Assembly (NCBI GenBank): GCA_036171455.1
Contig: JAVHRB010000091.1
Location: 2,977-66,976 of the forward strand
Length of the DNA: 64,000 nt
Source: Patescibacteria group bacterium
GTDB lineage: Bacteria > Patescibacteriota > Gracilibacteria > BD1-5 > UBA2023
Direction: 5' to 3'
Part shown: positions 3,492 through 56,611 of the stretch, in pieces
Numbering within the stretch: the first letter of the stretch is position 1
Layout: every line of letters begins with the position of its first letter
The notes under the pieces: generated by a model
What the model was told of the DNA's origin: nothing
The model's database searches: none
Seen by the model: the letters and a program-made list of their open reading frames with translations, nothing else
Translations under genes and position numbers: made by a program

Positions 3492-3500
3492 GGGAATTGG

Positions 3501-3674
3501 TTAACAGTAAAATGGAACGGGTTCTTGGGAGCAGATTTCGTAGGTGGCGATGAGCTCCGCGAGCGCAGCGACGATTTCCATGGCTTTTGGGTCGGCGGAG
3601 TGCTTCCGGAAGAATTTTCGGTCGGCACGCTGCCATTGGGCAAGCAGGGAGAGCGATTGGGGCGAGAGGTTCAT
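3501..3674 (-). CDS. small hypothetical protein, 57 aa, directly upstream of hsdR
   Basis: ATG 3674-3672 to TAA 3503-3501, below the 60-aa cut-off of the ORF track. Ends 9 nt before the hsdR start. Preceded by an AT-rich stretch at 3675-3849. Coding status unproven. Confidence 0.3.
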   Translation of the reverse strand: MNLSPQSLSLLAQWQRADRKFFRKHSADPKAMEIVAALAELIATYEICSQEPVPFYC

Positions 3675-3849
3675 AGTGGTGCGTTATTGGTTTGTAGGAT
3701 ATCGTTATTGCGGTATTGTAAACGAAATTTGATTTATAATACAGTTTTTATTATAATGATTCCAGCAGTTGGCAGAGGGTTTCCGTCAGGGAGCTCCGTC
3801 GCAAGACAAAGCCGATTGCTTTTTTGTGCCTTGGAGCGGGAACGAGCTG

Positions 3850-4605
3850 TTAGTGGGTGACATGCTTCGGCTCGATATCACAATAAAGGGTCTTGGCCGC
3901 AAACAGGGCATCCGTCCCTTCGAAGAGGCTTTTTTTGAAGAATCCGAGCGTATCCGCTTTTCCCATCCGTTTGGCGAGCACGTGGGAAGAATACACGTAC
4001 CCAATTACGTCGGAAAACTGCATCGAATAGGAATTGAAGCTTTCCGTGTAATATACGGAATCGACAAGGTGAACGATGTCTTTTTTCGCGTACCCGTAAG
4101 CGGTCCCGTTTCTCTTGTACGAATGGAAATCGTTGATAATCCCCTGCGCGCGGTCCTCGTTGTTATCCATGATTATCAAGCCCTTCTTCCCTTCGTTCTT
4201 GAGAAAGGTTTCCGCTTTTTCCACCAGGTACATGAACGCGACGTTGTGCGGGTGGATGGGATATTTATATTTTTGGGCATGTTTCAGCTTGTCGACGCCC
4301 TGCGAAATGAATCGCACGTTCTGTTCGGAAAAAACCTGGAGTATCCCTTTGAGGGCTTGTAAACGGACTTCCACCTTGAAATGCTTGAAATATCACTTTC
4401 CGGAAACCATATCCGTCGCATGGAATTCGAAATCGAAGTTTTGTGAATACGGCATGAACATGACTTCGATGGAGCGAAGCCGCTCTTCGATTTTCGGTAT
4501 TTCGTCCACGGGGATAATGAGACCGGATATGAAATGTACCGGCTGGTCGGCATCGTCCAATTTCGCTCCGGTGTTTCAGGACTCGTCTAGGTATATGAGG
4601 TACAT
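3850..4605 (-). CDS. DUF3800-family protein, 251 aa
   Basis: Fragment 3850..4374 extends in frame through TGA (4393-4395, 4576-4578) to ATG 4605-4603. N-terminus MYLIYLDESGNTG matches the DUF3800 Y-x-DESG signature. Confidence 0.8.
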
Positions 4606-4675
4606 GGCGTAAATTTAAGAATATGGGGTTTTATCTCAATCTGCAACGGGACTCGCAAATAAGGAAAGCGTATGC

Positions 4676-5953
4676 CTATTCAATCTTGGCAAAGTAATCC
4701 ATCATTTCCAGCGTTAGGTATTCAGGATTTTTCGTTTGGACCTCCCCAAGGAAAAATCGCATGCTTCAATCCGCTTGGCTGTCTCATTTGGTTTTTCTGA
4801 ATATCCTTTCCAAATCGTCGGCGTTGAGAACGTCATAGAGCACTACGAGCGTAATGAAGAAATCGTCGGAGTCGTTATAGCAATTAATCTCGAAATTATC
4901 TATCAGTTCGTTCACGAGCATCCTCTTGAGGAAAGCGTCCAAAGCTCAGAAAAATTCCTTATACCCAGGAATAGAGAGTATGTAATCCCTGTCGCGGAGT
5001 CATCTGCAGACAATCTTTCAATTTGCACCTTCTCAATACCGGATATATGGCAGTTTGGATTTCTTCGCCATGCAACGCTCAAGCCGGGTCTTCTGATATT
5101 CCAAGACGTCGTAAAGAAAATCGACTATGGTTTTGGTCGAATTGACCACCAGCTTCGCGTGATGCCTGCTCGGGGCGGTCTCGCGGGTATGGCTGTCGCT
5201 CATGGTATTCCGGACCGCGGCTATGCCGTTGACAATGGAAGTGATTCAGGAGGTGACCATTTTTAGGGCAGCGTCCGCCTTTGTGCCTTCCGACAGGTTC
5301 AACAAGGCCTTTATTTTTTTGTAATAATCCCCTAGGTCGCCGGGGGTCTCAATCTCCTTTCCCGTAATCTGCTTGTGCAAATCCTTGGCCAACACGTCTT
5401 CGAGCAGGGCTCGCGCGTTGGTAATGGCTCAGTCGTAATCTCACTCGGCAAGTTTCCTATCGCATTTTTCCAATTGCTCTTTGATGAAAGGGCGGGATAT
5501 TTTTCCGGAATTTTCGATTTCGATACGGTTTTCGTCGGTTTTTACCATCTTGAAACGCAGTTTCCTGCCCAAATTCTCCGGCATCATGGCAAAGCTGTCG
5601 TCTTTCAGGTAGTCGTTGACGAGTTCCAATAGGCCGTTTCGCTCCGTTTCGTTATCACGGACGAGGGGATGTAGCATCTCCGCGAGGAACTGGGCAAACG
5701 TTTCGTCGCTTCACTTCATCAAATCAAGCCGGGAATCGTCGAAAATCCAATGGTCAGGCCAATCGTTGTTATTGAACCTGTGCTGCCAGATATCCCCCTC
5801 CATGTCTTTGTAACGGCCATCGGTCGAAGGCAGGTCACCAAGGTTGAAAATGCGCTTCAGGAAAGAGGTCTCGTCAAGCCGTCAATGCCAGGCGATATTT
5901 TCGATGCGGAGCTCGTCGCAGATGTTCCTCCTCGTTTTTTCCGAAATCAGCAT
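4676..5953 (-). CDS. AbiJ-like protein with Abi_C (HEPN) domain, 425 aa
   Basis: ATG 5953-5951 (13 nt after the hsdS stop) to TAG 4678-4676. Includes fragment 5441..5677; eleven in-frame TGA. N-terminal AbiJ-NTD-like region (IAWH-G-RLDETSFLKRIF, DIWQH). Central helical domain with R-x6-H (AAVRNTMSDSH). Confidence 0.75.
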
Positions 5954-5966
5954 AAGCGTTTTATGG

Positions 5967-7187
5967 TTACGGTTTGATTTTCCCGCTCACCGCGTGCGAT
6001 ATGAGCGAAGTTTTGTATTCTTGGAGCAGTTCGATTGACTGTTCGATTTTAGATTTCATCGAATCGATGTAGGCGGTTTCCTTTTCGAGATAGTCGACGA
6101 TTTCCTTTTGTTCGGCAATCGGCGGTATGCCCATGGCGAGATTCCCGATAAATTCCCAATCAGCGCGAGGCATCTTGGTGCCAAGTGTCGAATTATTGAC
6201 CTGCGTGATGAAATCGGAAGATACGATTCTATAAAAAAGGTAATCCTGGGTTATCTCGCTGGAAGGACGCAGTACGAGGAACTCGCCGACGCACAATCCA
6301 CTGCATGCGGCTTTGTATGCTTTTGCGAGGTACGGGCGCAATTTTCCGAATAGAACATCCCCCTGCTCGAAAGAGTTCATATTGCTCTCGAAAGTCCTTT
6401 CCCCATCGATAGGAAGATATTTCCCTGTCCAGCTTTCGATATTTTCCATTGCCACGGAAAACAAGTCACCGGAAAATGTAGTTTTCTGGTTTGTATTCGG
6501 TGCGGCATATTTCAGCTTCTTCACTTCCCATTCTTTCGGAATCATGCCAATCCATTCAATCCCACTGTCTTTCATCTCTACATTCGGGTCTAACCCCTTG
6601 GTAATGGCGTTATTTATGAGTGCACTTCTGTGCTCCGAGAGAAGGTCGATTTGTTGCCTCTTTTTCGCAATTGACTCGTCCAGTAGAGCAGCTTTTTCGT
6701 CGAGATATGTAACAATCACAATTTGCTCTTCTAATTCTGGCGTCGGGAAAGAGATATTTGCTAGTATTCACTGGGTCATGCTCGGTATTGCCGACCCCGA
6801 CTGATGTTCACTGAAGTTAATTCCGAGACATAGGTAATAGAAAAATTTCGGATAAGTATTGCCGAATATCTTCGTGTAGAACATCGTGTCTACCGTCCAG
6901 AATGGTTCGGTAACGAAAAGCGGTTTGTCTATGGTCCCCTTCCTTCAAAGTAAAACCGAAGGTTTGTTGTAAACGAAAGCGTTTGCCCTCGCGAATTCGC
7001 CGCCCGAACCATAAACAGGATATTCGCCATCTTCGGCTTCGATATCCTTGTAATCGCTCCCATTGCACACCGAGGCCATGTATTTCAGTTTCTTAACTTC
7101 CCAACCATCGGGAATATTCCCAATCGCATTCGTGTTTGACGGCTTGTATTTCGGGTAACGGGGATGACATTTTTTAAACGTTATCAT
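5967..7187 (-). CDS. hsdS: type I R-M specificity subunit, 406 aa
   Basis: Fragments 6945..7316 and 5967..6719 are in one frame, joined across TGA 6945-6947 and 6768-6770. Start taken at ATG 7187-7185 (MITFKK). Two target-recognition halves, each followed by the conserved helix (PELEEQIVIVTYLDEK; IPPIAEQKEIVDYLEKE). Confidence 0.9.
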
Positions 7188-7312
7188 TGAATGTAAGAAA
7201 AAGTGCAGAAAACCAGAATCACATACGACAGCGTGAGGATTATCGGCCAGCCCCATGACGCGACCAGCTCGCCGCAGGCCTTTATCCATGCGGCTTTCGA
7301 TTGGAAAAAGGT

Positions 7313-8218
7313 TCACGAGCGTATGTCCATGGCGAGACGGATGAGCCGCCTCATGTTCTTGTGTTCCTTTTCCGTTGCCGGCTTGTCCTTTTTCCCCGAT
7401 ATTATTTTGAACGATTCGAGCAGGTGGGTAAGGTATTCGTCGTCGATACGCTCGGGGTTTTGAATCGGTTCGGCAATCGATGCCAGGAAATCCTTGAGGA
7501 AAGCCCGTTTCTGTTGCTGGTAGGCGTTCCTAGCGAACACCCAGGCGAACACGAGTACGACGTACAGGAAAAACGACGCTACGCCGAAATAAAAGCCCGA
7601 ATGGGGAATGCTCGCTATGAAACCGGGAATATCCTTATTGGGAGCCGCAACGGTAACGATGAGGGTTATTGAAACGCAGAGCAATACCACGGAATTGAAC
7701 GTGACGTCGTAGTTACGGTTGGTATACGTGTCCATTTCGTCGGAAAGCTCCCGCACGTACGGCCCGTAGAGCTTTTCCAGGGAGAATCCCGGTATGAAAG
7801 CGCTCCATTCGGCTGCGGTACGGAGTATTTCCACGATTTGCGACCGTCGCTTCGGGGAATCCAACAGGAATTCGCAAAACTCCACGCTCAGGAGCTTCGT
7901 GGCAATAAGTCAGGCATCTTTGACTGCTGACAGGAATTCCAGCTGGGAAACGTCCTTTTTCTTTAGCTTCGAAACGATGTCGGCAAGTTTTTCCCCTTGA
8001 CCCGAATATTTTTCGGTCTTGGTCTCCCTCGTGAAATCAAGAAGGATTTCAATCCCGTTCCTGATTGGGGAAATATCTACATTTTTGATTTTCGGTCATT
8101 CTTGCGACCTTGCCTGCGATACCGCTTGCTTCCTGAAAAGTCGGAACAGGTAAACCGCAACCCTCGATTCGTCGAGCTCGTTTCGTACTACCGGTCGGAA
8201 ATTTGATTGGTCTGCCAT
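7313..8218 (-). CDS. hypothetical 2-TM protein, 301 aa
   Basis: Fragment 7313..7885 extends through TGA 7910-7912 and 8096-8098 to ATG 8218-8216 (12 nt after the DUF262 gene stop). Two hydrophobic helices (FNSVVLLCVSITLIVTVAA; GFYFGVASFFLYVVLVFAWVFA). No domain recognised. Confidence 0.65.
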
Positions 8219-8230
8219 GGTGCCGTTATG

Positions 8231-10111
8231 TTATTCGACGTTGAAAATGGAGTCGTTCCAAATCCTTTCGCAAATCACCCGGACCAGTTCCGCTCTGGCG
8301 CGTATGGCGACCTTCCCATACGAACCGTAAGCCGTAAAGGCTAAATCCTCGGTATCGATAAGCTGCAGGAAAGCAGGATGCTTCTCATAACACTGGGAAT
8401 TGAGCGACCAAGCGAGGAGGTTCTGAGAGAGGTAGTGGCTAACTTTCGTCTCGTACGGGGCATCGCTGAAGCTCTGGTTATACCCCCGAGGGAGCAGCAG
8501 GAGGTCGCCCACGTTGTTCCTCCACTCCTGAAAGTCATGCTCGTCTTCGTATTCCGTCGCGTACCGCTCGTATTTGTCGGCGGTTATGTGCTCAATTTCA
8601 TACGGCTTTTTTATAGACAGTGACAAATACTGTTCCACGCTGCTCGGAATACCGGTTTTCTCTTCGATGTAATGGGTAATCCGGGCCAGGAGGAATTTCA
8701 TGGTATTGTAGTTCCTCCTTCCGTCCGAGAGCTTATATTGGATGATTCCGGTGAAATCCTCTCACATCTCGGCGATAAATTCCCGACACGCATCGGAAAG
8801 CTCCTCCAACGAGCAGTCCCGGACCCGTTTGGTGAGATTGAACATGGTATAGCTAATGGCGCTGCTTCAAAGGGAGCGGTTGTTCGTAAGGCGGAGCATG
8901 ATGAACATTTCCAGGAATTCGGAGATGAGCTTCAGCTTCTTATCGACGGTATCTTCATCATCCCCGTACTTTACCGCGGAAAGCATGATGACGTCCTGAT
9001 ACGGGAACGTATGGTAGTCGTTGTAGAACACGGACGGGTATTTTGTGTCGAGTACCGATTTCGCCCTTTGGATTTTCAGGTAGAGTCCCGAATAGAATCG
9101 GAACTGCTCGTCGATGAAGCGGAAATAGTCGTCGCTTCTCGCGAATCAGATATCGCTTTCCCCATTCTCTCTTACCCACTTGTGAAAAGCGGTCCCTATT
9201 CGTTCGTAGTCCTGGTTCATCGAACCTTGTTGCCGTTGGCGCAAGGTTTTCGCGTATTTAGCCCTGAGCCACTTCTTAAAAAATTCCTCGTCTTCCCTTT
9301 TCTCGATGGAAATGAGCTTTACTATTCGTTCCTTCCATAGGTCGTTCGCGGCTGCCCTTTTCTGTTCATCCCGTATGTTCGCCAACAGGTACCCCTTGAG
9401 CATGTCGGTCGCCGTCAGGCTTAGTCCACGGTCGTTCATAGTTTCGAATATGGTGTACGCGTCGTCGTCCGAATGGGTGGTAATCTCCACCATGTCGACG
9501 TTGCCGGTGAGCCAATCAACGAAAAACGGCAATATTTCTCACTTTTCTCAAATCAGGCTGTCCGGGAAGTTCTCGGCTATGTCATGGTACCGGTCGAGGA
9601 TGTTCGTTATCGATTGCGGCGCGTCGTCCGGCAAAACGACTTCCTCTTTTCCGGAAAACAGGCTTTCGATTACCGATTGCCGCTCCGGCGCGTCGATATT
9701 GAAAGATTTTTCGCCGTAGGCCTCCGAATATATCAGGGATTCTAGCGGGGTTATCGCGATGTCTCTTTTCGTGGCCAAATTCCTCAGGTAAATCAACAGG
9801 AGGGTTATCGAGGTAAGGCGTTGCTGGCCGTCTATGATGAATTTCTTGCCGTCTTTCACGCACACGATGAAAGAGCCGAGAAAATAGTGGGGGTAACTCT
9901 TGACGTGCGGGCGTCCGCGTTCGATGTCGACGACGTTCTCGAATTTTCCGGACAGGTCGCTCAGAAGGGCTTCTATGTCCACGGCACGCCACTTGTATTC
10001 CCGCTGGTAGAAGTCGATTCCGAACTTCTCGCCGGAGAGGATTTTCTTAATGGACAATGCACTGCCATCGATTGGCAGTACGCCGCCGTCCGTTCTGTTC
10101 GTTTCTCCCAT
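8231..10111 (-). CDS. DUF262 + DUF1524 (GmrSD-like) nuclease, 626 aa
   Basis: Fragments 9548..10111, 9146..9532 and 8231..8701 are in one frame, and the 8702-9145 gap is open apart from TGA. DUF262 motif IIDGQQRLTS. C-terminal His-Me/HNH-like region YEIEHITADK ... NVGDLLLLPRGYNQS. Confidence 0.9.
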
Positions 10112-10128
10112 ATGTGTGTTTGGTAAAA

Positions 10129-12261
10129 TTACAACCGCTTCATCAGTTCGAGGAGTTCGTTCTCCACCGTTTCGATATCCGTCTCTATCGCTTCCAGGCT
10201 CCGCGGCGGTTCGTATTGGTAGAAATACCGGGTAAGCGGGAACTCATAGCCGACCTTCCCAACCTTCCCGTCTTTCGCGTCGCGCTTCATCTCGTCTATC
10301 CAAGCGTCCGGCACGAACGGTTTAACTTCCCGCTCGAAGTACGCGTTCACGTCTTCGTGATACGGGACGTTCTCGGTATCGCGGAGTTCGGAATCGGGTT
10401 CCGGGTTTCATTTCCCGTCGACGCATATGTCCGCCGATTCGTCCCGTTTTCACAGGTACGCCAAGAGTCGGTTTTTCATCGGTTTTCCATAAATGGTTCC
10501 AAGCATGCTCAGCGTAAGCGCATCGAACGTTTTTTCGAATTCGCCACGGTTCAAAAACACCTTTCATTCCAATTTTCATGCAATCCGGGTCAACGCCTCG
10601 TTCATTGCTATCGCAGCATGTCGCTCCATTACAAATTTCGTAGACATCGATTCAAGAACCGTTCACTTGCATTCTATTTCCTGATTCATCGCTAACCGAA
10701 GGTCGTTTTCCAATTCACTCGAAGCGCGGATACCGAGTCCGCTGAACAACAGAGCCTTGCCTTCTTCGCTGCTGAAATCGTATTTCAGCCTCAGCGGACG
10801 CTCTATAGTGATTTGCCGGTAGGCGAAGTCGGTCGTCTTGAAAATCTTGGAACAGTCGCTATCGCGGAAACCGCGGTACAGCGACAAAATGGTTTCGATG
10901 TCATTCCCGCCAATCTCGTGCCGCTTGTTTCCGAGGCTCTTCCGCATCTTCACGAAGGACTTACGGGCGTCGATGAGCTGGACGGTATTTTTCCGCTCCT
11001 CGGTTTTCCGGTTCGAGAGAATCCAGATATAGGTCGAAATCCCCGTATTGTAGAACAGCTGGTCTGGCAGGGCGATGATGGCTTCCAAATAATCGTTCTC
11101 GCATACCCACCGGCGTATCTCGCTCTCGCCGTCGCCCGCGTCCCCGGTGAACAGGGGAGAGCCGTTGAAGACGATTCCGATACGCGCTCCCCCCTCCTCC
11201 CGGTCGCGCATCTTGGAAACCATGTGCTGGAGGAACAGGAGCTGTCCGTCGGAACTCCGCGGCAACCCAGCTCAGAAACGCCCGGCATAGCCCCGCTCCG
11301 CTTCCGCTTCCACGGCTTCCTTGTCCTTCTTCCAATCCACTCAATAAGGGGGATTGGCAAGGATATAATCGAACTTGAGGTCAAGGAATTGGTCGGTCGA
11401 AAGCGTGCTGGCCACCGTGTGGTCTTTGTCTCCGCCCTTGATACGGTCTGCGTCTTCTCCCTTCATCAGCATGTCGGCCTTACAGATGGCATAGGTGACG
11501 GGGTTGAGTTCCTGTCCGTAGACGAATATGCTGGCCTTAGGGTTGATGTCCGAAAGTATGTGTTCCTTTCCTGCGGACAGCATACCGCCAGTTCACGCAC
11601 AACAGTCGTACATGGTCTTTATAACGTGTTCCCGCTTGAGCTCCTTGGCATCGGGCTCGAAAAGGACTTCCACTATGAGTTGGATTACTTCCCTCGGGGT
11701 GTAATGTTCCCCGGCGGTCTCGTTGGACTGCTCGGAAAACCGGCGGATGAGTTCCTCGAACACGTACCCCATCTCGTGGTTGGACACGGCGTCGGGATGG
11801 AGGTTTACCTTGTTGAACTCCTTGATTATGAGATAAAGCATGTTTCCGCCTTCCATCCGGGCGAGCTGTTTCTCGAATTCGAACTTCTCGAAAATCTGTT
11901 TCACGTTGTCGGAAAAACCGCCGATGAGGTTCCTGAGGTTCTTCGCCATGTCGCGCTGGTCGTCCAGGAGCTTGTGGAAATCGTAGGGCGAAACGTTGTA
12001 GAACCCGGTTCCGGCGATATCCTTGAGTATCATGCCCATGTCGGAAATCTGGCCGTCGTACTGGTTGAACGTGGAAAGTACTTCCTCCTTGGTGTCGGAA
12101 AGGACGCTGTCGAGGCGTTTCAGGAGCGTGAGCGGTAGGATTACGTCCTGGTATTCGTGCTGTTTCCAGCTTCAGCGGAGGAGTTCGGCGATGTTCCAAA
12201 TAAGCCCTGCTTTGGAAGCGGAGCCGGTATTGGTCGATGGGGTATTTTCTTTTGGTGCCAT
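10129..12261 (-). CDS. hsdM: type I R-M N6-adenine DNA methyltransferase subunit, 710 aa
   Basis: Fragments 11593..12039, 11341..11583, 10663..11265 and 10129..10350 are all in one frame. ATG 12261-12259. N-terminal LIWNIAELLR-[TGA]-SWKQHEYQDVILPLTLLKRLD, motif I DCCA-[TGA]-TGGML, motif IV NPPY-[TGA], C-terminal YFEREVKPFVPDAWID. Confidence 0.95.
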
Positions 12262-41812: not shown

Positions 41813-41932
41813 GTGCCTTTACTTCCTCCCTCCATGGCTTTAAATGGCGATTAAGCCCGATAAGCGGCGATACTCCGCTACAAGCGTTTAGTATGGTTCG
41901 AGCGATAAATTGTTCGGGGAGCCATAGCATAA

Positions 41933-43390
41933 TCAACATATTTTCGCCCTCTTCAAGAGCTCGTTCTCCTGAATAGTAAGCGACAAATCATCCTTCGCAA
42001 AAAGTTCAACCTGAATTCCCTTCAGAACCTTGAATTTCCGCGAAGGATTTTTTGTAGCGTAGGCTGGGAGCAGGTTATCGAGGAGTTTAACCCATTTTAT
42101 GATTAGCCCCCTGGTGCTACGGGTATCGTCAGCAATGGTTGTTATTCGTTCTTCAAGATACTTCTTCCTTCGAAGCAATGAGAGCGAAGTCTCCTTATAA
42201 TCTTCGTCCGTAATGATTTCCGCAAGGAGCTTTTTCATAAGGGACTGTCGCTTTCATTCTATTCCTTCAAGTTCTTCCAATAATATATTCCTTTCGGAAA
42301 TCGTTCAGCTATCGGTCTTGAACTCCGTATTCAGGGCCATTTCCATATCTGAAATGAAGCCGTCGGGAAAAGAAAACCCCTTCATATAGTCATTCATTTT
42401 CTCAAAAAGGAACTTTTGTGAATAGTTCAACCTCCTTACGATGCGGTTTTGTCATCGATAGTAGATATAGGGGTTTCCGTATCGGTTGCGTGTTTCGTAA
42501 GAAATAAGTGGGTGTCCGTTGTAGTCATAAATCATTCCACGAAAATGTGCGTCATATGCCATATCTGGCTTTGACCTCAATTGCCTACGAATAGCATTCA
42601 CCTTCTCAAACGTGGCGCAACTGATAATAGGCTTGTATCAGGGCATTCGTATTTCGGCTTCTCATAGTTTCCCCCGCTGTATTCCTATATAGAATGGGTT
42701 TTTCAGCATTTGTTCGATGGTCGATACGTTTTTCTTGTATCAACATTCAAGGAAATACGCCGAAATCGACTTGAATTGTTCTCACTTTAATCTCATTTCA
42801 AAGGCCTTTTTCATAATTTCCGCTTCTTTCTCGACCACCAACACGTCGTGTCATATTCTTCCGAACTCATCGAAGAACTGATGGTTCTTGTATCAAAAAG
42901 GCGTAGGAGACATAACTCTGCCAGCTTGGAATAATGTTTCCATTTTTCTTCTGGTATTGCTCGACCTCATTTGATTGTCCGCCTTTGACATGAGGAATGA
43001 TATTCAGAGTATGAGCGCACTGAAAATATCGGTTCCATTAAAAAACTGCTTACTTTCGGAGGCATAAAAACCTTTGATATGGTTTTTATTTATTAGCTCC
43101 GTGAAGTAAGCAGCATCTATGGTGTTTCTTGATATTCTCGTTGGGTCGTAGGCGATGACGTAATCGTATCAACCCTTTTTACAAATAGAGAGTAATTGTT
43201 TGAAACCTGGTCGTTTTCCTTCATCTTTGGCACTTTTATGGTCTTCTATAATGATGGTCTCAAGGTCATAATCAGCAGCGAGTTTTTCGCAGTGTTGCCT
43301 TTGAGTTTCGATAGTAATCTGTTGTCGGTCATCTCTGTCGGTAGATTTCCGCAAATAGATTACGGCTCGCTGTCTTTTCATTCGTTTCAT
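41933..43390 (-). CDS. large serine recombinase, 485 aa
   Basis: I translated the full frame: fragments 43169..43390 and 41933..42238 are joined by an open frame containing only TGA. Resolvase motifs AVIYLRKSTD, YDYVIAYDPTRISRN. Recombinase domain PF-[TGA]-YK. C-terminal coiled region. Confidence 0.9.
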
Positions 43391-44883
43391 TGATTAAGAT
43401 TAAAAAGATTTTGGAAAGCTCACTCAAATAGGGTGATATGTGCGTCAGGTCAAACAATGAAAGAAACGCCCAAGCCTCGAAGAATGTCAGCTTTTTCTGT
43501 TTTCGATACTTTTTTATACGTGCCAGGCAAATCTTTGAAAAGGTTGGCATACATTTTCGCCGTGCCAGCAATGTCTTTTTTGTTTGACTTCATTTCTTCT
43601 AAAAGAAGTGTTTTTCTCTCTATGAGCTCGGTATTTTCAATTATGGACTTTTCATACTTTTCCACCAAAAGCTTCGAACTCGTTTCTCAAAGACGTTCCA
43701 TATAAGCATCAATAGCTTTTTTAAGTGTTTCAATTTCGCCTTGGAGCAAGTTCGTGGCTCTATCTTGCTCTTTTATAGTAAGGGCTAACTTATTTTTTAA
43801 TTGAGCCTCAATTAAAATCGAAAACGATGGTGGTGGTGAAAACTTGTGTATCTGCTTTCAGGCCTCCCTGAAAAGTTTGCTTTCAGCAACATTGATTTTG
43901 TAGGTATAGTCCTTGTTTCGTTGTCGGTAATATACCTTATCTTTGGTAATAGCTCACTGGAGCATCTGTCCTGCTACGTCAAAAACCATTTTATCAAGAA
44001 GTTTTTTTGAGTTTTTTGACGATACTGGGTTTGTTTTTCAGTGTTTTCTTGCGTGAAGCCTTTCATATTCAACAAGCCTATCGAATTTTGGCTTGTCTAT
44101 TATAGGCATATATCACGGGTTTCTAACGGGAAGCATTTCCCCTTTGTGCTTAAACTCTCAATACTGAATGGGGTGGAGGAGCGCCGTTTTGATATTTCAA
44201 CCAGTTTTTTTGTAGCCTCGCTCATCAAACATTTTTGCTATTTGCGTCCATTGACAACCATTTAATCGCCATTCATAAGCTAATCTTACAAGATTGGCCT
44301 TATCTGTATTGACAACCACTGCGGCATCTTTTCCTGTTTGGTCGTATCAAAATGGAAACTTACTGGTAAAGTGCCCTTTATCACTCTTTAAGAAATCATG
44401 ATAATCAGTAGAGGTAATAGATAAATGGCTATTTTCCTGTTTTGCCTTAAAAAGCTCGCCTTCCAAGTCAATCAAATCATTCGGGGACGACACTAAATAT
44501 GTTCTCCCCTGTGTCATGACACCGCACCTGATTTTTTGATTTTTAGCGTCCAAAGCACTCATAAAACTTGTTGTGTCCGTAGTATTTCTGGAAATACGAC
44601 TGACGTAATATGAAAGAACGTAATCAACTCAATGTTCCTTGATAGCAATCATCATATTTTGAAACCCCGAACGCCTCTTTGAACTTTCTTCTTTTGCCGA
44701 AACACTTTCAATAATAAAACCATTTTGTGGAAAGTCGCAAATTCGACCATCAAGACCTATAACTTCCAAATCAGGAGAATTTTTCAAAATCTTTTCAACC
44801 CAATGAGTTTGGAACTCAATCGAGTTTTTCTGTTTATCAGGACAATCAGTTGATTTGCGAATATATACGAAACACGTTTTCAT
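43360..44883 (-). CDS. large serine recombinase (second copy), 507 aa
   Basis: Fragments 44629..44883, 44347..44562 and 43450..43668 are in one frame. CFVYIRKSTD, VDYVLSYYVSRISRN, FPF-[TGA]-YD. TAA at 43362-43360 lies 31 nt inside the next recombinase gene. Confidence 0.85.
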
Positions 44884-48564: not shown

Positions 48565-48712
48565 TCAGTGTTGGCTTTCCCATTGGGTTGCTTACCATAA
48601 GGCAAGACCGATTTGATTTTTTTACGGTTTTCCATATATTTAAGAGCGTTTTTTCCTACTACAATTTCCAACAAAGAAATTCACACACCATAAAATCTAA
48701 CCCTTCGCTCAT

Positions 48713-50701
48713 ATGTCTCATCATGACTTCAAAAAATCACTTTTGGAATTACTAAAGGCAGATGAGCGACTTTGGCAAGATGGCGAATTCAATCAAACAC
48801 GCCTATTTGATTTGGTAGATAAACACGATGGTGTGTTATTAGGACTATTGCTTGGCAACGAAGAGCTCAAAGCGAAATTTTTTGTAAATGTAAATGAAAT
48901 TTACGTCTTCAAGGGGCAGGAATTCAAGTTCTTTTTGGACGAAAACAAACTTGATAACAGCTATACGCAATTTGAAAACGTCATAGGTCTGAAAATTGGC
49001 AAGAAAATGCTGAAAGACCGTGATGAGGTCGTATTAAATTTCCCATTCAAGGACTGTATTCTTCAATGAGGACAGAGCCGTGATGATGGTTTAGATATTT
49101 GATTTGAATACGACGAAGCGTCCAATGATTTCCAAGAAGTGGAAGCCAAACGGAAAGAAGTGTTCTTCAATGAGATACTTGCCAAAGACGAAATAGACCG
49201 ATTGGAGGCTAAAAAAGTGCTGAAAAATTGGAAACGATATTCAAAAGATGGTGAAGTCGCGGTATGAAAATTGAAGCGAGATAGCGATGGAACGATACAA
49301 GAAAACCTAATTATCAAGGGGAATAATCTTTTGGCACTCCATAGCCTCAAAAATGAGTTCGCAGGCAAGGTGAAACTCATCTACATAGACCCACCATACA
49401 ATACTGGTTCTGACAGCTTCAAGTATAATGATAACTTCAATCATAGCACTTGGCTGACTTTTATGAAAAATCGGCTGGAAGTGGCAAAAGAGTTATTGAG
49501 AGACGATGGAGTGATTTTCGTTCAGTGTGATGATAACGAGCAGGCTTATTTGAAAGTTCTAATGGACGAGGTCTTTTGAAGCTGAAATTTCATAGATACT
49601 TTCATATGGAAAAATACAGACAATGCCCCAACACTATCAAAAAAGGTAAGATGAGGGTGGGAATTTATTCATTGTTTTGAAAAAAGAATAGATTTATCTA
49701 AAGCTTATATTTGAAGGCAGAGCAATAATGACGATGCGCCACTATTAAATACCTGAAATTCACCGTCCATATTACGGTTCCCAGAATGAACCATTCACTT
49801 CAACATTAGTGATTGAGTTTATAAAAAATGAACTTATGACCGCATTGAATTATTAAATGACCTTATCGTTGTTAATAGTCTTAATAAAAATGCTATAGAA
49901 ATAAGATGAGAATTTAAGTGGAATAAAAAAATGCTGGACGCTGAAATTTCCAAAGAAACTTATTTTTTAGTAAAGACAGGAAAGTTTTCCATTAGATATC
50001 AAAGAAAGGACGCGTCAAACATTGCGCCAGAAAAATTTATTGACGTCCCCTATCTCAATAAGGCTGTCTGAATTGATACAAATGAAGACTCAAAGAAGGA
50101 AATAAGTGCTTTGGGAATTGATTTTCCATCTTTTCCGAAACCAGAAAGCCTCATTTTATTCCTGATAAGAACAATAACTACACAAGGAGATATTGTTCTT
50201 GATTATCATTTATGAAGTGGCACGACTGCCGCAGTAGCTCATAAAATGGGCCGACAATACATAGGAGTAGAGCAAATGGGGTATATTGAAACTATTGCCG
50301 TTGAAAGAATGAAAAAAGTGATTGAATGAGAGCAGGGCGGTATTAGTAAGACTGTAAATTGGCAAGGTGGCGGAGATTTTGTTTATTTTGAGCTTGCCGA
50401 ATGGAATGAAGAAGCAAAAAAGCACATTCAAAAAGCTGAAAGTATCGAAGAATTGGAGAATTTTTTTGAAGTTATGTATGAGCGATATTTCTTGAACTAC
50501 AACGTAAGGGTAAAGGACTTTAAGGAAAAAGTTCTTACAGATAACAAGTTCAGAGGGCTTCCATTGGAAAGACAGAAGGAAATGTTTGCGAGAATGCTGG
50601 ACCTGAACCAAATGTATGTGAATTTTACTGAACGCAATGATAAAAAGTTCGGTATTTCAAGTACTGATATCACTTTGAGTGAGGAATTTTATAAAAACTA
50701 A
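48713..50701 (+). CDS. mod: type III R-M DNA methyltransferase (Mod), 662 aa
   Basis: Fragments 48713..49069, 49271..49579 and 50453..50701 are in one frame. Motif IV IYIDPPYNTG, C-terminal AdoMet motif VLDYHL-[TGA]-SGTTAAVA. About 15 TGA. Confidence 0.92.
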
Positions 50702-50710
50702 TCTTTTCTA

Positions 50711-52543
50711 ATGAGCGAGATACGAATTAATAGCATCAAGATTAAAAATTATCGTTCATTTTGAAATGAAGAGCAGATTATTGAGTTCCCAGATAAAGAC
50801 TATAAAAGACCCGTTGCGATTGTTTGATACAACAATGCGTGAAAGAGTAATTTAATGAATGCTATCTTGTATGGTATCGGTCAAGAATACGTATGAGATA
50901 AGGAATTTACTAAAACCGATTTATTCAAATTAGATTATCAAAACCTTCTTCGAATAACTACCAAATTAGAAGGTTCATTTTATGATTGCGAACCTTATTA
51001 CGACAAACAAACAAGAGGCACTCTTAATAAGAAATCGATTACTGGCGAGTATCAAATCAATACAAAACTTGAAGACGGAGAGCTTCAATGAAAAATGTCG
51101 CCTTCAATGTTTTGAATGAATAAGCACTATCAGATTTTTTATGTCAATTTTCATCAAATCAAAGACCAGATATCTACTCAAAAAACAAGTTGGGGAAACA
51201 TGAAGTCCTTTTTGGGGAAACATATAAATAAATTAATCGAAGATGATGCTATTATTAACGGGAGAAAACAGAGATTTAAGGAAGAAATCGGGGCAGCAAC
51301 AAAGAACGTCATTGAGTGAAATGCTGATGAAGACGAAGCCAAATCGAAATTGTTTCAGTTCATAGAAACGATTAAGAAGAACTACGAAACAAACTTGCGG
51401 AACAGCGCCTGCGTAGTCGATTTTTGATTGCCCGATTATGAAGATATTTTTCTTCAAATGTTTTTTAAGATTTGATTGAATTGAAACACGGACAACCTTG
51501 TTCCTATAAGCAATTTTTGAGACGGCTTTATATCAATGTTTGTCATGTCCGTAATTCAGGCCATTGCCGAAAGCAATAGCACTGACAAATGCTTGTTTTT
51601 ATTCGAAGAACCCGAGAGCTTCTTACACGAAAACCATCAAGAATATTTTTATAAGACGGTATTATGCTGATTGGCAGAGAAATGACACCAAGTGATATAC
51701 ACGACGCATTCGGACAAAATGATTGATATCTTTGATACCAAAGGTTTGATTAGGCTTGAAAATGACGATAGCACCTGAACGATTGTAAAATATAACAACA
51801 CCGAAGATTTCTCACCAATTTTGAGTATTCCACCAGACAGTGATGAAGATGCTGTTTCCGATGCGGAAAACGAAGTCTATAATCAATATATAAAAAGCAT
51901 TGAACCAAACCTGAATAAAATCTTATTCAGCAAAAAAGTCATATTGGTTGAATGACCTAATGACCTTATGGCGTATTCTTTCGCCATAAAGCAAAGAATT
52001 GAAAAACTCGAAGCGGAGAACACCAAGATTTCCGACAAGAAGAAGTATGCGGAAACCTTCCTGAATTTTCACAATATCGTCATTATTCCGCATCACTGAA
52101 AAGCAACGGCACTCTTGCTTATTCAATTGTGTAAGCATATAAAAGTCGATTATTTCGTTATTAACGATTTTGATTTCGAACCCAGCGAATTAAGCGTATC
52201 AACATTATCTTGAATTGACACGCCCGAAGCACTGAAGGAGCAAAACGCCTATATAAGTGCTGAAACGGGCAAAAAATGAATGATGACAGTGAATTTCAAC
52301 CTGATACGAGCGGCTTCATCTGAAAAAATTCATTTTAACGTTCCGAGATTTGAGGAAGCTATTTGATACTGAAGGAATGATAAAAATGCCGTGAGAATAT
52401 GGAAGCACCTTAACGGCATGTCTTCATTCGGCGAAGGCTTCTTTCCAAGAAAATTGGAAGATTTTCTACTCAATAGAATTTCGGAAGTTCAAACAATTTC
52501 AGAAAGCACAGATGAAATACAAATGACGAATACTCCTTTCTAA
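50711..52543 (+). CDS. OLD-family ATP-dependent endonuclease (ABC-type ATPase + TOPRIM), 610 aa
   Basis: ATG 50711, 9 nt after the mod stop. Walker A IV-[TGA]-YNNA-[TGA]-KSN, Walker B LFLFEEPESFLH, TOPRIM VILVE-[TGA]-PNDL and FVINDFD. TAA 52541-52543. Confidence 0.85.
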
Positions 52544-52549
52544 AAAATT

Positions 52550-55273
52550 ATGACAAAAGCGCCTCTACACCAACAAATCAAAGAGCAAATCGGTAGCAAG
52601 ACCGTTGCCAAGATTGGAATACCTCCCTATATTACAGACAACCTGAAATATAGTCTTTTTGATTGGCAGAAGGACGCTATTCGTCATTTTTTGGCTTTTA
52701 ACGAAAGTGAATACGAATTCGAAAAACCGGAGCAATCTCCATTTCATTTGCTCTTCAATATGGCGACTGGAACCGGTAAGACCCTCCTTATGGCAAGTTT
52801 GATACTGTATTATTACAAGAAGTGATACAGGAGCTTTGTCTTTTTCGTAAATCAAAACAATATCGTCGACAAAACGGAAAACAACTTTATCGATAAGAAC
52901 CACGCGAAATATCTATTCAATCAGAATATCGTCATAGACGAGAAAAACGTCAAAATCAAAAAGGTCGAAACCTTTTCTAACGATAGTGAAAACATAGAAA
53001 TAAAATTCACTTCGATACACAAACTCCACAACGATATCTACAAGGTTCGGGAAAACGCCATATATCTCGAAGACTTACAAAAACGAGATATCGTAATGCT
53101 TGGTGACGAGGCCCATCATTTGAATGCTGATACCAAGAAGAAGAAAAGCAACCAAATGGAAGTTTCGCTCGAATTCACGGAAGAGCTCACTGAAAAAGCA
53201 GGACAGGACGCCATAGAAAAGAGTTGGGAAAATACCGTCATCAACAAGATACTCCACAAAGACCATAAAAATCAGTTCGAAAACAAGAACGTTCTTTTGG
53301 AATTCACAGCCACCGTTCCAGATGACGAAGAAGTTCAAAAGAAATATCAGAACAGAATTATCTTTTCATTCGACCTCAAAGAATTCTTAAAAGCCTGATA
53401 TACCAAAGAAATCAACCTGATTTCGTCCAGTTTCGAAAGAAAAGAACGAATACTCCAGGCCTTGCTTTTGAACTGGTATCGCCAGAAAATTGCCACGGAA
53501 CATGGTATAGCTAATTTCAAAGGCGTGGTTTTGTTCCGCAGTAAGGACATTGCTTCTTCCAAAGAAGATTTCGAAGTGTTTCACAACATCATCGAAAATC
53601 TCTCCATATCAGACTTCGATTTCTTGAAACGCATAGGTTCCGAACTCACGGAGTGAAACGCCAGCTACGAAAAGTGAGTAAGTCGCATCAAGGAAATGGC
53701 AAAAACCATTCAAGGCGAATGAGTACTTGGCGAGGCAATACAATACATTCAATATGGTTTCAAAAAAGAAAACTGTATCATCACGAACTCCGAAAACAAC
53801 AAAACACAAAAAGAAAAGACGAGCGAATGACAGGAAAAATTGTTAAATAGCCTCGAAAATCACAACAACCACATTCGTGCCATATTCACGGTTCAAAGAC
53901 TAACCGAATGATGGGACGTATTGAACCTTTTTGATATCGTTCGATTATATGAAAAACAAAACACGGGGTGAAGCTCCATAAAATGAAAAACGCCAACGAC
54001 TTCCGAAGTCCAACTCATAGGCCGAGGCGTTCGTTATTACCCATTTGATTATGGCGATAAGCTGAAAATCAAAAGAAAATTCGATGACGATTTGGAACAC
54101 CCGCTTCGAATACTCGAAGAACTTTTCTATCATAGCGATAACGATAGCAAATACGTTTCCGACTTGAAGAACGAGTTAAAGAAGGAATGATACATTCAGG
54201 ACAATAGGACTATAAAGACATTCAAGCTAAAACAGGAATTCAAAGGGACTGATTTTTACAAGAACCTGTATATCGCACTGAATAATCAGGTCGATAACCC
54301 AAACCGTAGAAAGATTACACTCGACGAAATACGTGAAGAATTTTCATTCGAATACGAATTATCAGCATACTCGATAACAGAAGAAGAAATAGTCCTTCAG
54401 GAAAAAAGTGATATTACGAAATATCAGAAAAAGGAATGAGTCAAAACAACGTTCTCAAAAGCACTGAAAGATTTCGACTATCATATTTTCAGAAAAGCAA
54501 TTGCGATAAAATCGAAATACGACAATTCAATTTTTCAATTCGAAAAATTGAAGGACGAATTGAATATCGAAAGCGTCGATGACTTGCTGAAAGATGAGTT
54601 CCTTGGTTCGTTTTCCATCAATGTGGTGATAGAAAAATGAATGAGCTTCGAAGATATTTCAACTGACACGCAATTGGCTATCTTATCAAAGTTCTTCGAT
54701 GAAGTATCAGTGAAACTGAAACAATTCTCGAACCCATACAATGGCGACGAATTCAAGCTCGTGAAATTTTCTGACAATTTCTACGATAAGGAAAAGATGG
54801 TCGATATCACTGCGAATGCCTCATCGTTGGAACAAGACTTAATCAATACGGAATGGTATGTATTGAATGGTTTTAATGGTAGCTCGGAAGAAGAAAATCT
54901 CATTCGTGTTATAACGAAGACCATTTGAAACTTACAGGACGAATACGACCAAGTATATTTGCTTCGAAATGAAGAAGTATTGAAAATCTATGACTTTCAG
55001 ACTGGTATGGGGTTTCAGCCAGATTTCCTATTGTTCCTGAAAGAAAAGTGAAAAAACAATTACTATCAGATATTCATTGAACCAAAGGGGGCTCACTTGC
55101 TTGAAAAAGACGAGTGGAAGAATGTATTCTTAAAAGAGATAACAGCTCGCTATGGCGTAGAAAATACCCTTCAATTCGCAAACGATGATTACATCATCAT
55201 AGGACTGCCGCTTTATAACAAAGACTACTCGAAAGAATTTGATGAAAACTTCCAGCCGTTGCTTGGAAAATAA
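52550..55273 (+). CDS. res: type III restriction enzyme Res subunit (SF2 helicase-nuclease), 907 aa
   Basis: Fragments 52550..52825, 53096..53398, 53462..53656 and 54641..54928 are in one frame. Motif I MATGTGKT, motif II MLGDEAHH, TE-[TGA]-WDV. C-terminal nuclease-like QPDFLLFLKEK ... IFIEPKG. Confidence 0.92.
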
Positions 55274-55277
55274 TATA

Positions 55278-55304
55278 AACGCCCCCAATTTTGGGGGCGT
55301 TTTA
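55278..55304 (+). terminator. rho-independent terminator after res
   Basis: aaacgccccc-aatt-ttgggggcgtttt. Confidence 0.85.
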
Positions 55305-55674: not shown

Positions 55675-56523
55675 CTATTTTAAAGATTTCAATTTTTGCT
55701 TTCCCTGCTTCGGCGGTAGATAATTCTCACCGCTCACTACCCTTTTTCCCGTCTTAGATTCAAGCTCCAAACGAGCCTTTTTCGCAATATTTCCACCAGT
55801 TTTGCCCGCCTCTTTGTTTTCGTCCATACCATCAGCCAAAATGGTTTCAGCAATTTGCCTCGTCGAGAGTTCGGCAAGTGCCGTGAAGATAAGTTCCGCC
55901 TCGCTCATGTGATCACGAAGATTCTGCGATTTCAGACCTTTTAAGCTCTTATGATCACGTACGGAGAGTCCAGTCCACTCCTCGTGGATAATATTCGTGA
56001 GAATCGCAAATTCTTGCCCCTCCTGTATGCTGTGTTCTTTCCAGTAATCCGTAAGGTTATTTCGGGTTTCTTGTCCCATCATGCGTTGTGCAATCCATTT
56101 TTCGCTCCGGCCGTGCTTTTTCCAGTTATCCCGCGCTCGGTCGAGGGATTTTTCCGGATCCGAAATTTCTTGAATTCGTTCGTATCCGACCTTGGCAAGC
56201 CAAAGCTTGATTGGTTCGGCTTTTTTGGATGGCACCGATTGAATGAGGCGCAAAAGGACTTCTACAGTAGCTACGTCGGTCAGATATTTCTTTCCATCCG
56301 CAGCCTCCAATTTCAGTCGGTCACAATTTGTGACCACCTCGCTTCACTCCTTCTTTAAGCGGTTTTTCAGGGTAGACCAATACGATTTTGCTTTACTGTA
56401 ATCCCCTTGATCTGTAAGTGCCGCAACGATATCGATCACGGAAAAATACCAAGTCTCCGTTTTTTCGTCGTATTGGCGGCGAATGTTGAAATTTTCGAAT
56501 ATGGCGAGGGTTTGGTCGGTCAT
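55675..56523 (-). CDS. Bro-N / DNA-damage-inducible protein D-like (phage antirepressor family), 282 aa
   Basis: Fragments 56344..56646 and 55675..56337 are in one frame across TGA 56344-56346. ATG 56523 (MTDQTLAIFENFNIRRQYDEKTETWYFSVIDIVAALT). Confidence 0.85.
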
Positions 56524-56611
56524 ACGATGGCGGTTAGAAAGTAAAAAAATGTGATTTCTCATGGTGATTCCTCCAATTTTCCTGCCTATATGATTTGGAT
56601 TAAAAATTTGA

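What the first reader, a model, noticed from the sequence alone, without database searches (positions are those of the whole stretch)
48713..55273. Type III R-M operon with an OLD-family ATPase-TOPRIM nuclease inserted between mod and res
mod, the OLD-family gene and res are separated by only 9 and 6 nt, and a single strong terminator follows res. The OLD protein has an intact Walker A (both glycines TGA-encoded), Walker B and TOPRIM Glu and DxD motifs. OLD nucleases are known as stand-alone defence genes, or they pair with helicases, as in Gabija GajA with the helicase GajB. Here the partner is the SF2 helicase-nuclease Res. This suggests a hybrid three-component system rather than a classical two-gene type III enzyme.
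Basis: partly seen in the sequence, partly recalled or inferred. Interest (0 to 1): 0.7.

Follow-up and report, generated by a model that had tools for sequence, protein, structure and literature searches.

The report
OLD nuclease nested in type III operon
A complete type III restriction-modification operon in a bacterium that reads TGA as glycine carries a stand-alone-type OLD defence nuclease between its two genes; this looks like another case of the known habit of nesting one defence gene inside another system, not a new three-part enzyme.

Summary
With TGA read as glycine, 48713-55273 holds three intact co-oriented genes. They are mod (662 aa), an OLD-family ATPase-TOPRIM nuclease (610 aa) and res (907 aa), separated by 9 and 6 nt and followed by a -20 kcal/mol hairpin. 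All catalytic motifs are intact.

The arrangement is not unique. Six deeply diverged versions exist, all on TGA-recoded contigs. Their OLD genes form one clade under strong purifying selection.

The "hybrid three-component enzyme" reading is not supported:
- The same OLD subfamily (38-60% identical) has no type III neighbour in 69 of 70 species. Its best structural match is the Class 1 OLD of Thermus scotoductus, not Gabija GajA.
- In about 80 of 84 related type III operons, mod directly abuts res.
- In the sister operons the same slot holds an unrelated ABC ATPase (PADLOC PDC-S06). Elsewhere it holds Bro-N or RhuM genes.
- The same window has a type I operon with nested GmrSD and AbiJ genes.

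Best reading: a self-sufficient Class 1-type OLD defence gene embedded in, co-transcribed with and co-inherited with a classical type III system. This matches the published "embedded defence" pattern (PrrC/RloC; Payne et al. 2024). A guardian role for OLD remains possible but untested.

The parts
48611..48712 (+). Conserved upstream leader of the cassette, with a candidate promoter (TTGATT-16 nt-TATATT at 48613-48640).
   Evidence: DNA homology with the related cassette in L010 starts at 48611. A promoter-like site lies at 48613-48640. Promoter function is inferred.
48713..50701 (+). mod: type III N6-adenine methyltransferase and specificity subunit (662 aa). DPPY is at 49388-49399 and the SAM motif LGSGTT at 50210-50227. 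The central variable target-recognition region is about 49510-50188.
   Evidence: Family matches are (MTase_III 6e-209) and motif positions. The central region is not conserved among related cassettes, and Mod identities are out of step with OLD and Res.
50711..52543 (+). [quoted passage not shown] Walker A is at 50825-50848, Walker B at 51593-51616, TOPRIM Glu at 51944-51964 and DxD at 52160-52177. The protein ends in a degenerate tail, ...MTNTPF.
   Evidence: Family matches are (Old 4e-34), conserved columns, and the best PDB sequence match (6P74). The fold of a 60%-identical homologue matches 6P74 best.
52550..55273 (+). res: type III restriction subunit (907 aa). SF2 motifs are I at 52760-52783, II (DEAHH) at 53105-53119 and VI at 54011-54034. 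The PD...ExK nuclease motif spans 55019-55090.
   Evidence: Family matches are (REase_III 5e-114). Homologues carry the HI_1054 domains. The motifs fall on invariant columns, with positions.
55277..55302 (.). Intrinsic terminator hairpin that closes the operon. It looks bidirectional and lies between res and the convergent downstream genes.
   Evidence: The scan finds it. Folding gives -20 kcal/mol, z -3.8. Homology with L010 ends at 55280.

Best explanation
This is a classical type III restriction-modification operon with a self-sufficient Class 1-type OLD defence nuclease nested between mod and res.

One transcript runs from a promoter in the conserved 100-nt leader through mod, OLD and res to the hairpin at 55277-55302. 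That is inferred from the 9- and 6-nt gaps and the absence of an internal terminator.

Mod and Res would form the usual type III enzyme. Mod recognises and hemimethylates an asymmetric site through its variable central region. Res uses ATP and its PD-ExK nuclease to cut unmodified DNA. This is inferred from intact motifs and family membership.

OLD is a separate second layer. By analogy with characterised Class 1 OLDs, its ABC-ATPase part senses a feature of infection. Candidates are aberrant or replicating phage DNA, or a phage counter-defence protein. Its TOPRIM nuclease then nicks DNA or cuts tRNA to stop the phage.

Nesting gives co-expression and, above all, co-inheritance. The three genes move and persist as one cassette inside a lineage that reads TGA as glycine. 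The slot between mod and res is a recurrent landing site for such accessory defence genes.
For: Anatomy and motifs are established.

The OLD subfamily works without type III partners:
- 69 of 70 species-representative loci show no type III mod or res match within the fetched flanks, which are up to 10 kb but shorter on short contigs.
- In Flavobacterium psychrophilum the gene sits among housekeeping genes.
- The best PDB sequence match is the Class 1 Thermus scotoductus OLD 6P74.
- The best fold match is also 6P74 (E 9e-26), ahead of GajA.

The type III family is normally two genes. Mod abuts res in about 72 of 76 metagenome loci and 8 of 8 viral-collection loci.

The slot is polymorphic:
- Sister operons (Res 70-71% identical) carry a 788-aa AAA_13 protein, PADLOC PDC-S06 at 3e-196.
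- Four distant operons carry Bro-N or RhuM genes.

The same window has a type I operon with nested genes: hsdM-GmrSD-hsdS-AbiJ-unknown ORF-hsdR at 492-12261.

Nesting is stable. There are six distinct versions. The five tested in a tree form one clade. In the four relatives analysed, synonymous sites are saturated (pS 0.65-0.8) while OLD pN is 0.12-0.21, and the gaps stay at 9-11 and 5-7 nt. OLD and Res identities are broadly congruent.

Homology between versions is confined to 48611-55280, with unrelated flanks.

The published frame fits. Embedded defence genes, mostly ABC ATPases with TOPRIM or other nucleases, are reported in Hma, BREX, DISARM and type I RM (bioRxiv 10.1101/2024.01.29.577857). 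RloC is linked to type I or III loci (PMC2610378).
Against: Within the recoded clade (Res at least 70% identical), every operon whose upstream side is visible has an embedded gene, and that gene is an ABC ATPase in all but L162. This could mean more than hitch-hiking, that is, a functional dependence.

No expression, interaction or phenotype data exist. Co-transcription, activity of any of the three proteins, and the OLD trigger and substrate are all inferred.

The survey covers one Res family and one OLD subfamily. It does not cover all type III systems.
Confidence: 0.7

Rival explanations
1. OLD acts as a guardian of the RM system. It is held inactive by, or monitors, the Mod-Res complex. 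It fires when a phage anti-restriction protein disables the enzyme or when restriction fails. This is how PrrC works with EcoprrI, and how PARIS AriA responds to Ocr.
For: OLD is embedded in the operon in the same orientation with tight gaps, and this has been kept through deep divergence. Nearly every operon of the recoded clade carries an ABC-ATPase gene in the slot, either OLD or PDC-S06, and PDC-S06 has a weak PrrC match. OLD and Res identities are broadly congruent. The literature reports ABC ATPases of this superfamily being triggered by anti-restriction proteins.
Against: The same OLD subfamily is found without any type III system nearby in 69 of 70 species. No clade-specific domain or motif distinguishes embedded from free copies. 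Characterised Class 1 OLDs sense DNA structures or replication, not RM enzymes.
Confidence: 0.17
2. This is a true hybrid three-component restriction enzyme. OLD would be a structural or catalytic subunit that works with the Res motor on the same DNA, as GajA works with GajB.
For: The operon structure, and the fact that some OLD classes need a helicase partner, are compatible with it. GajA is the second-best fold match.
Against: Res keeps its own complete PD-ExK nuclease and helicase motifs, so no activity is missing. Res is an SF2 ResIII protein, not a UvrD-like SF1 helicase. The best matches for OLD are Class 1 OLD. Related type III enzymes work as two genes. In sister operons the slot holds an unrelated protein.
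Confidence: 0.06
3. OLD is a passenger with no present function. It would be a selfish or decaying insertion that persists only because the addictive RM cassette around it is hard to lose.
For: RM cassettes are mobile and the flanks differ between genomes.
Against: All the embedded OLD genes seen complete are full-length with intact catalytic residues. They are under strong purifying selection despite saturated synonymous divergence.
Confidence: 0.04

Closest known systems
Class 1 OLD family nucleases (phage P2 Old, Thermus scotoductus OLD PDB 6P74, Vibrio cholerae Vc OLD, E. coli YbjD)
   Same: [quoted passage not shown] The subfamily has no dedicated partner gene. 6P74 is the best sequence and fold match, and Old is the best PADLOC model.
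   Different: Identity to 6P74 is only about 16%. Here the gene sits inside a type III operon. About half of this subfamily carries an acidic ...[DE][DE][LI]PF C-terminal tip, which I did not find mentioned for OLD proteins in the one literature search I ran. The trigger and substrate are unknown.
Defence genes embedded in multi-gene defence systems (Payne et al. 2024 preprint, 10.1101/2024.01.29.577857: Hma, BREX, DISARM, type I RM; for example HEC-04 ATPase-TOPRIM, BrxU)
   Same: A defence gene is nested between the genes of another system in the same orientation. ABC ATPase-nuclease genes are the commonest embedded cargo. Different cargo occupies the same slot in related hosts.
   Different: The host system here is a type III RM, which that survey did not cover as far as the text read shows. 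The organism uses genetic code 25.
PrrC / RloC anticodon nucleases linked to type I (and, for RloC, type III) R-M loci
   Same: An ABC-ATPase-plus-nuclease abortive-infection protein is encoded inside an R-M locus. The sister operons carry a PDC-S06/AAA_13 protein with a weak PrrC match in the same slot.
   Different: OLD has a TOPRIM nuclease, not the PrrC/RloC anticodon-nuclease domain. Silencing by the R-M enzyme is shown for PrrC but is untested here.
Gabija (GajA-GajB; Class 2 OLD)
   Same: The ATPase-TOPRIM architecture is shared, and GajA is the second-best fold match. There are weaker PADLOC GajA hits.
   Different: There is no UvrD-like SF1 helicase gene. The neighbour is an SF2 ResIII restriction subunit with its own nuclease. 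PADLOC Old scores far better than any GajA model.
Classical type III R-M systems (EcoP15I type; HI_1054-type Res family)
   Same: Mod has a TypeIII_RM_meth N-domain, DPPY and SAM motifs. Res has SF2 motifs and a C-terminal PD-ExK. mod lies upstream of res in one operon.
   Different: A 1.8-kb gene separates mod and res. In about 95% of relatives the two genes abut.

Membership tests
Type III restriction-modification system | The Mod subunit is a beta-class N6-adenine/N4-cytosine methyltransferase with DPPY and FxGxG-type motifs and a type III N-terminal domain. | tested here: met
   It matches Pfam N6_N4_Mtase at 2e-42 and TypeIII_RM_meth at 4e-15, and PADLOC MTase_III at 6e-209 over the full length. 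DPPY is at aa 226-229 and LGSGTT at aa 500-505.
Type III restriction-modification system | The Res subunit has SF2 helicase-like ATPase motifs and a C-terminal PD-(D/E)xK nuclease. | tested here: met
   It matches ResIII at 6e-24 and PADLOC REase_III at 5e-114 over aa 21-899. GTGKT, DEAHH, TAT, QxxGRxxR and PD...EPK all fall on invariant columns.
Type III restriction-modification system | It is a two-gene mod-res operon with the genes adjacent. | tested here: not met
   OLD (1833 nt) lies between them. Relatives have mod abutting res in about 80 of 84 loci. The order mod then res, the shared strand and the single terminator are all kept.
Type III restriction-modification system | It cleaves DNA ATP-dependently, needs two inversely oriented unmodified sites, and hemimethylates its own site. 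| not testable with these tools
   This needs biochemistry or methylome data.
OLD family nuclease | It has an N-terminal ABC ATPase with Walker A, Walker B and an H-loop. | tested here: met
   It matches AAA_15 at 1e-20. GYNNAGKS, LFLFEEPE and TTHS lie on invariant or near-invariant columns.
OLD family nuclease | It has a C-terminal TOPRIM domain with a catalytic Glu and DxD. | tested here: met
   It matches Pfam OLD-like_TOPRIM at 3e-9 over aa 405-488. E414, D486 and D488 are invariant. The fold of a close homologue matches 6P74 at E 9e-26 with TM 0.65. That model is of homologue P0009, not the window protein.
Class 1 OLD (stand-alone) | It has no conserved partner gene and variable neighbourhoods. 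| tested here: met
   This holds for the subfamily. 69 of 70 species loci have no type III genes, and neighbourhoods differ. In this clade the gene is nested in an RM operon.
Class 2 OLD / Gabija | It has an adjacent UvrD/PcrA/Rep-like SF1 helicase (GajB). | tested here: not met
   The neighbours are Mod and an SF2 ResIII protein. GajA models score 1e-17 or worse against 4e-34 for Old.
PARIS (Class 4 OLD) | The ATPase (AriA) and TOPRIM (AriB) are separate genes. | tested here: not met
   Both domains are in one 610-aa protein. The AriA hits cover only the ATPase part.
PrrC/RloC-type R-M-linked abortive nuclease | It is encoded inside an R-M locus, has an ABC ATPase, and has an anticodon-nuclease C-domain silenced by the R-M enzyme. 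| tested here: inconclusive
   The location and the ABC ATPase are met. The nuclease domain is TOPRIM, not the PrrC type, so homology is not met. Silencing by Mod-Res cannot be tested here.
Embedded defence gene (sense of Payne et al. 2024) | The gene is nested between genes of a multi-gene defence system, on the same strand, and is itself a known or candidate defence gene. | tested here: met
   The slot also holds PDC-S06 in sister operons. The definition is read from the paper.

The most novel reading that the evidence does not exclude
In this TGA-recoded lineage the type III enzyme and the nested ABC-ATPase nuclease (OLD, or PDC-S06 in the sister operons) form an obligate guard pair. The nested protein would read the state of Mod-Res, or of DNA being tracked by Res, and trigger abortive nuclease activity when restriction is blocked. 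This would be a type III counterpart of PrrC-EcoprrI with exchangeable guards. The SSB-tip-like C-terminal tail of the OLD subfamily might be part of the sensing mechanism.
Probability: 0.15. Interest if true: 0.7.

Novelty: new member of a known kind. Interest (0 to 1): 0.38.

Why it matters
This extends the "guilt-by-embedding" pattern to type III restriction systems and to candidate-phyla bacteria that read TGA as glycine.

One slot, between mod and res, is shown being filled by different single-gene defence modules in sister operons. That makes a compact natural test of whether nested genes guard their host system or merely travel with it.

More than half of the OLD glycine codons are TGA (20 of 36). 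A standard-code host would therefore read this copy as fragments, which fits the observation that every version found is on a TGA-recoded contig.

If OLD does respond to the state of the restriction enzyme, it would be the first such guard described for a type III system.

Tried and rejected
- Gabija-like pairing was rejected. There is no SF1 helicase, the GajA models are weak, and Class 1 OLD is the best match by sequence and fold.
- Hma (helicase-methylase-ATPase) membership was considered. Res matched only REase_III, and no Hma model was among the listed matches for Mod or OLD, where only the best 25 of 47 and 64 are shown.
- A recent or unique insertion was rejected. Six diverged versions exist, the five tested form one clade, and they are under purifying selection.
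- Phase-variable repeats in mod were looked for. None of note were found.
- Shared flanks between cassette copies were looked for. None were found at the DNA or protein level.
A 60%-identical homologue was modelled instead.
- The look-up of P0031 found no contig.
- One literature query was badly chosen and returned nothing useful.
- No paper was found that describes OLD between mod and res, or an SSB-like tip on OLD proteins. This is absence in the searched library only.
- OLD subfamilies other than this one, and type III Res families other than the HI_1054 type, were not surveyed.
Full report
**1. The observation**

The window uses TGA as a sense codon. Allowing only TAA and TAG as stops more than doubles the coding capacity of long ORFs. 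Three contiguous + strand ORFs then appear at 48713-50701, 50711-52543 and 52550-55273. Their gaps are 9 and 6 nt, and they contain 15, 20 and 14 in-frame TGA codons. Frames of this length free of TAA/TAG have probabilities of 1e-16 to 1e-23 at the local base composition.

That TGA means glycine is shown directly. Database homologues P0002-P0006 were translated with TGA = Trp. They carry W exactly where all other homologues have conserved G, for example VWYNNAWKS against VGYNNSGKT in the Walker A loop.

**2. Gene identities**

- Mod matches Pfam N6_N4_Mtase and TypeIII_RM_meth, and PADLOC MTase_III at 6e-209 over its whole length.
- The middle protein matches AAA_15 and OLD-like_TOPRIM. Its best PADLOC model is Old (4e-34), well ahead of the AriA and GajA models.
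- Res matches ResIII, and PADLOC REase_III at 5e-114.
- NCBIfam adds nothing specific.

- In OLD: Walker A with both glycines TGA-encoded, the LFLFEEPE Walker B region, the TOPRIM Glu in LVEGPND, and DxD in INDFDF.
- In Mod: DPPY and LGSGTT.
- In Res: GTGKT, DEAHH, QLIGRGVR and a complete PD...EPK nuclease motif.

An 11-bp hairpin with 7 G-C pairs follows res at 55277-55302 (-20 kcal/mol, z -3.8). Nothing comparable lies inside the operon.

**3. Is the arrangement unique?**

No. The closest OLD homologues (63-79% identical) all sit between a type III mod and res, in the same order and with similarly tight gaps:
- metagenome contigs L005/L006, L007/L008, L009 and L179/L180;
- one genome-collection MAG, L010, labelled as a Patescibacteria group bacterium.

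All of these contigs are recoded: the called proteins do not translate under table 11, and the genes hold 12-24 in-frame TGA codons.

Five embedded OLDs were placed in a neighbour-joining tree of 119 subfamily members, and they form a single clade. Between the window and four relatives, synonymous sites are saturated (pS 0.65-0.8) while OLD pN is only 0.12-0.21. The intergenic gaps stay at 9-11 and 5-7 nt. OLD and Res identity matrices are broadly congruent. Mod is out of step because its central target-recognition region is swapped between versions.

Nucleotide homology between versions is confined to 48611-55280. That is the leader, the three genes and the terminator. The flanks are unrelated. 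The cassette is therefore old, selected and inherited or moved as a unit.

**4. Is OLD a subunit of the restriction enzyme?**

Comparative evidence says this is unlikely.

(a) The same OLD subfamily is widespread at 38-60% identity in Bacteroidota, Paenibacillus and other Bacillales, several candidate phyla and an archaeal MAG. In 69 of 70 species-representative loci there is no type III mod or res in the fetched flanks of up to 10 kb. In Flavobacterium psychrophilum it sits among housekeeping genes. In a Parcubacteria MAG it lies beside a type II system.

(b) A profile of the subfamily finds the Class 1 OLD of Thermus scotoductus (6P74) as the only strong PDB sequence match. An AlphaFold model of the 60%-identical homologue P0009 (mean pLDDT 81) matches 6P74 best (E 9e-26, TM 0.65), ahead of GajA.

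(c) The Res family is normally a two-gene system. Among 80 metagenome loci with Res 46-56% identical, about 72 of the 76 with a detectable mod have mod abutting res. All 8 loci from the viral collection do too.

(d) The slot is polymorphic.
- The next-closest Res proteins (70-71% identical, L080-L083, also recoded) have a 788-aa AAA_13 protein between mod and res. It matches PADLOC candidate PDC-S06 at 3e-196, with a weak PrrC hit.
- Four distant operons carry an insert of about 300 aa. Three are Bro-N proteins and one is a RhuM protein.
- One contig with an 84%-identical Res has yet another, unidentifiable ORF upstream.

(e) Res keeps its own nuclease, so no activity is missing. Neither OLD, Mod nor Res shows an added domain in the embedded clade.

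(f) The same window holds a type I operon on the minus strand with nested genes:
- hsdM at 10129-12261
- a GmrSD-type enzyme at 8231-10111
- hsdS at 5967-7289
- an AbiJ-like protein at 4676-5953
- an unidentified ORF at 3850-4605
- hsdR at 492-3491

**5. Comparison with what is known**

Nesting of defence genes inside multi-gene defence systems has been described for Hma, BREX, DISARM and type I RM. ABC ATPases joined to TOPRIM and other nucleases are the commonest cargo, and 96.7% of embedded genes are co-oriented with their host (bioRxiv 10.1101/2024.01.29.577857).

PrrC is embedded in a type Ic locus and is switched on when the restriction enzyme is inhibited. RloC is linked to type I or III loci in 8 of 73 cases (PMC2610378; PMC12707154).

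Class 1 OLDs are described as stand-alone genes in variable neighbourhoods (PMC12796447). P2 Old is reported as a tRNA-cleaving sentinel activated by aberrant or replicating DNA (10.64898/2026.07.10.737580). Vc OLD is reported as a DNA nickase that blocks phage replication (PMC12392090).

The locus here is a further case of this pattern, with a type III host system and a code-25 organism. I found no paper describing OLD between mod and res, but the library searched is partial.

**6. Most likely mechanism**

- Shown: three intact, co-oriented, tightly spaced genes with one terminator; conservation of that unit; and the independence of the OLD subfamily elsewhere.
- Inferred: one transcript from a promoter in the conserved leader (candidate at 48613-48640).
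- Inferred: Mod-Res acts as an ordinary type III enzyme whose specificity varies by exchange of the Mod central region.
- Inferred: OLD acts separately as a second layer that senses an infection cue with its ATPase part and cuts DNA or tRNA with its TOPRIM part.
- Inferred: nesting provides co-expression and co-inheritance.

I put about 0.7 on this model. About 0.17 goes on a guardian relationship in which OLD reads the state of the restriction enzyme. In favour of the guardian model, every operon in the recoded clade whose upstream side is visible has the slot filled, in all but one case by an ABC-ATPase gene. About 0.06 goes on a true three-subunit enzyme, and about 0.04 on a functionless passenger.

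**7. Verdict**

Novelty is a new member of a known kind. Interest is moderate.

The useful points are the exchangeable occupants of one slot in sister operons, the confinement of the cassette to a recoded gene pool, and a side observation on the OLD C-terminal tip (see below).

**8. Context and side observations**

The window changes composition at about 41 kb: GC is about 50% to the left and 35-41% to the right. TGA is used as a sense codon on both sides, but much more heavily in the cassette. In OLD, 20 of 36 glycine codons are TGA.

Two large serine recombinases lie at 41888-44883, and a Bro-N gene lies just beyond the terminator. Homologues of that Bro-N gene occupy the mod-res slot elsewhere.

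Contigs from the same sample series join window 55566 to window position 1. The join runs through 2.85 kb that encodes another serine recombinase. This suggests a circular form or an indel variant of an element of about 58 kb with the cassette at its edge.

About half of the OLD subfamily ends in [DE][DE][LI]PF after a disordered stretch. This resembles the tip of bacterial SSB. The SSB comparison rests on my own knowledge.

Noticed in passing
window 492-12261 (minus strand): This is a type I R-M operon with nested defence genes. The order is hsdM (10129-12261), a GmrSD-type enzyme (8231-10111), hsdS (5967-7289), an AbiJ-like protein (4676-5953), an unknown 251-aa ORF (3850-4605) and hsdR (492-3491). 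It is a second example of embedding in the same window.
   Followed up: partly
window 52469-52543 (OLD C-terminus); alignment A1; 119 homologues: About 64 of 119 members of this OLD subfamily end in [DE][DE][LI]PF (DDLPF, DELPF, EDIPF) after a stretch predicted to be disordered. This resembles the acidic tip of bacterial SSB (...DDDIPF, from my own knowledge). The window copy is degenerate (MTNTPF). No paper was found linking OLD proteins to such a tip.
   Followed up: partly
L080 6620-8986 (also L081-L083): Sister type III operons (Res 70-71% identical, also TGA-recoded) carry a 788-aa AAA_13 protein in the same slot between mod and res. It matches PADLOC candidate PDC-S06 at 3e-196, with a weak PrrC match.
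   Followed up: yes
window 55566 and window 1; L085 6123-8977, L086: Contigs from the same sample series join window 55566 to window position 1, through 2.85 kb that encodes a 586-aa serine recombinase and a 410-aa ORF. Several contigs end at about 55513. This may be a circular form or an indel variant of an element of about 58 kb with the type III cassette at its right edge.
   Followed up: partly
window 1-41000 versus 41000-64000: There is a sharp composition change: GC is about 45-61% on the left and 35-41% on the right. TGA is a sense codon on both sides but supplies very different shares of glycine codons. For example, hsdR has 2 TGA against 63 GGN, while OLD has 20 TGA against 16 GGN.
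   Followed up: no
window 55675-56562 (minus strand); L112 3879-4772, L147 2610-3530: The Bro-N domain gene just downstream of the terminator has close homologues that sit between mod and res in two distant type III operons. A third operon (L114) holds another Bro-N protein and a fourth (L148) holds a RhuM-family gene.
   Followed up: partly
window 41888-44883 (minus strand): Two adjacent large serine recombinase genes (500 and 507 aa; Resolvase and Recombinase domains) lie 4 kb upstream of the cassette.
   Followed up: no
window 49445 (inside mod); L084-L087 start: Four independent assemblies of the same cassette all break at the same point inside mod, next to the non-conserved central region (about 49510-50188). 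This is consistent with co-existing mod specificity alleles in the population.
   Followed up: no
L162 103-489: A contig whose Res is 84% identical to the window's has an unrelated ORF end of 128 aa directly upstream of res, with no Pfam match. This may be a third kind of occupant of the slot in this clade.
   Followed up: no
window 50951-51130 and 51251-51370 (OLD aa 81-140 and 181-220): The embedded OLD copies are most variable in two stretches of the ATPase domain. L007 carries a different, longer version of the first stretch, shared with a separate branch of free-standing homologues. This suggests segment exchange in a possible sensor region.
   Followed up: no
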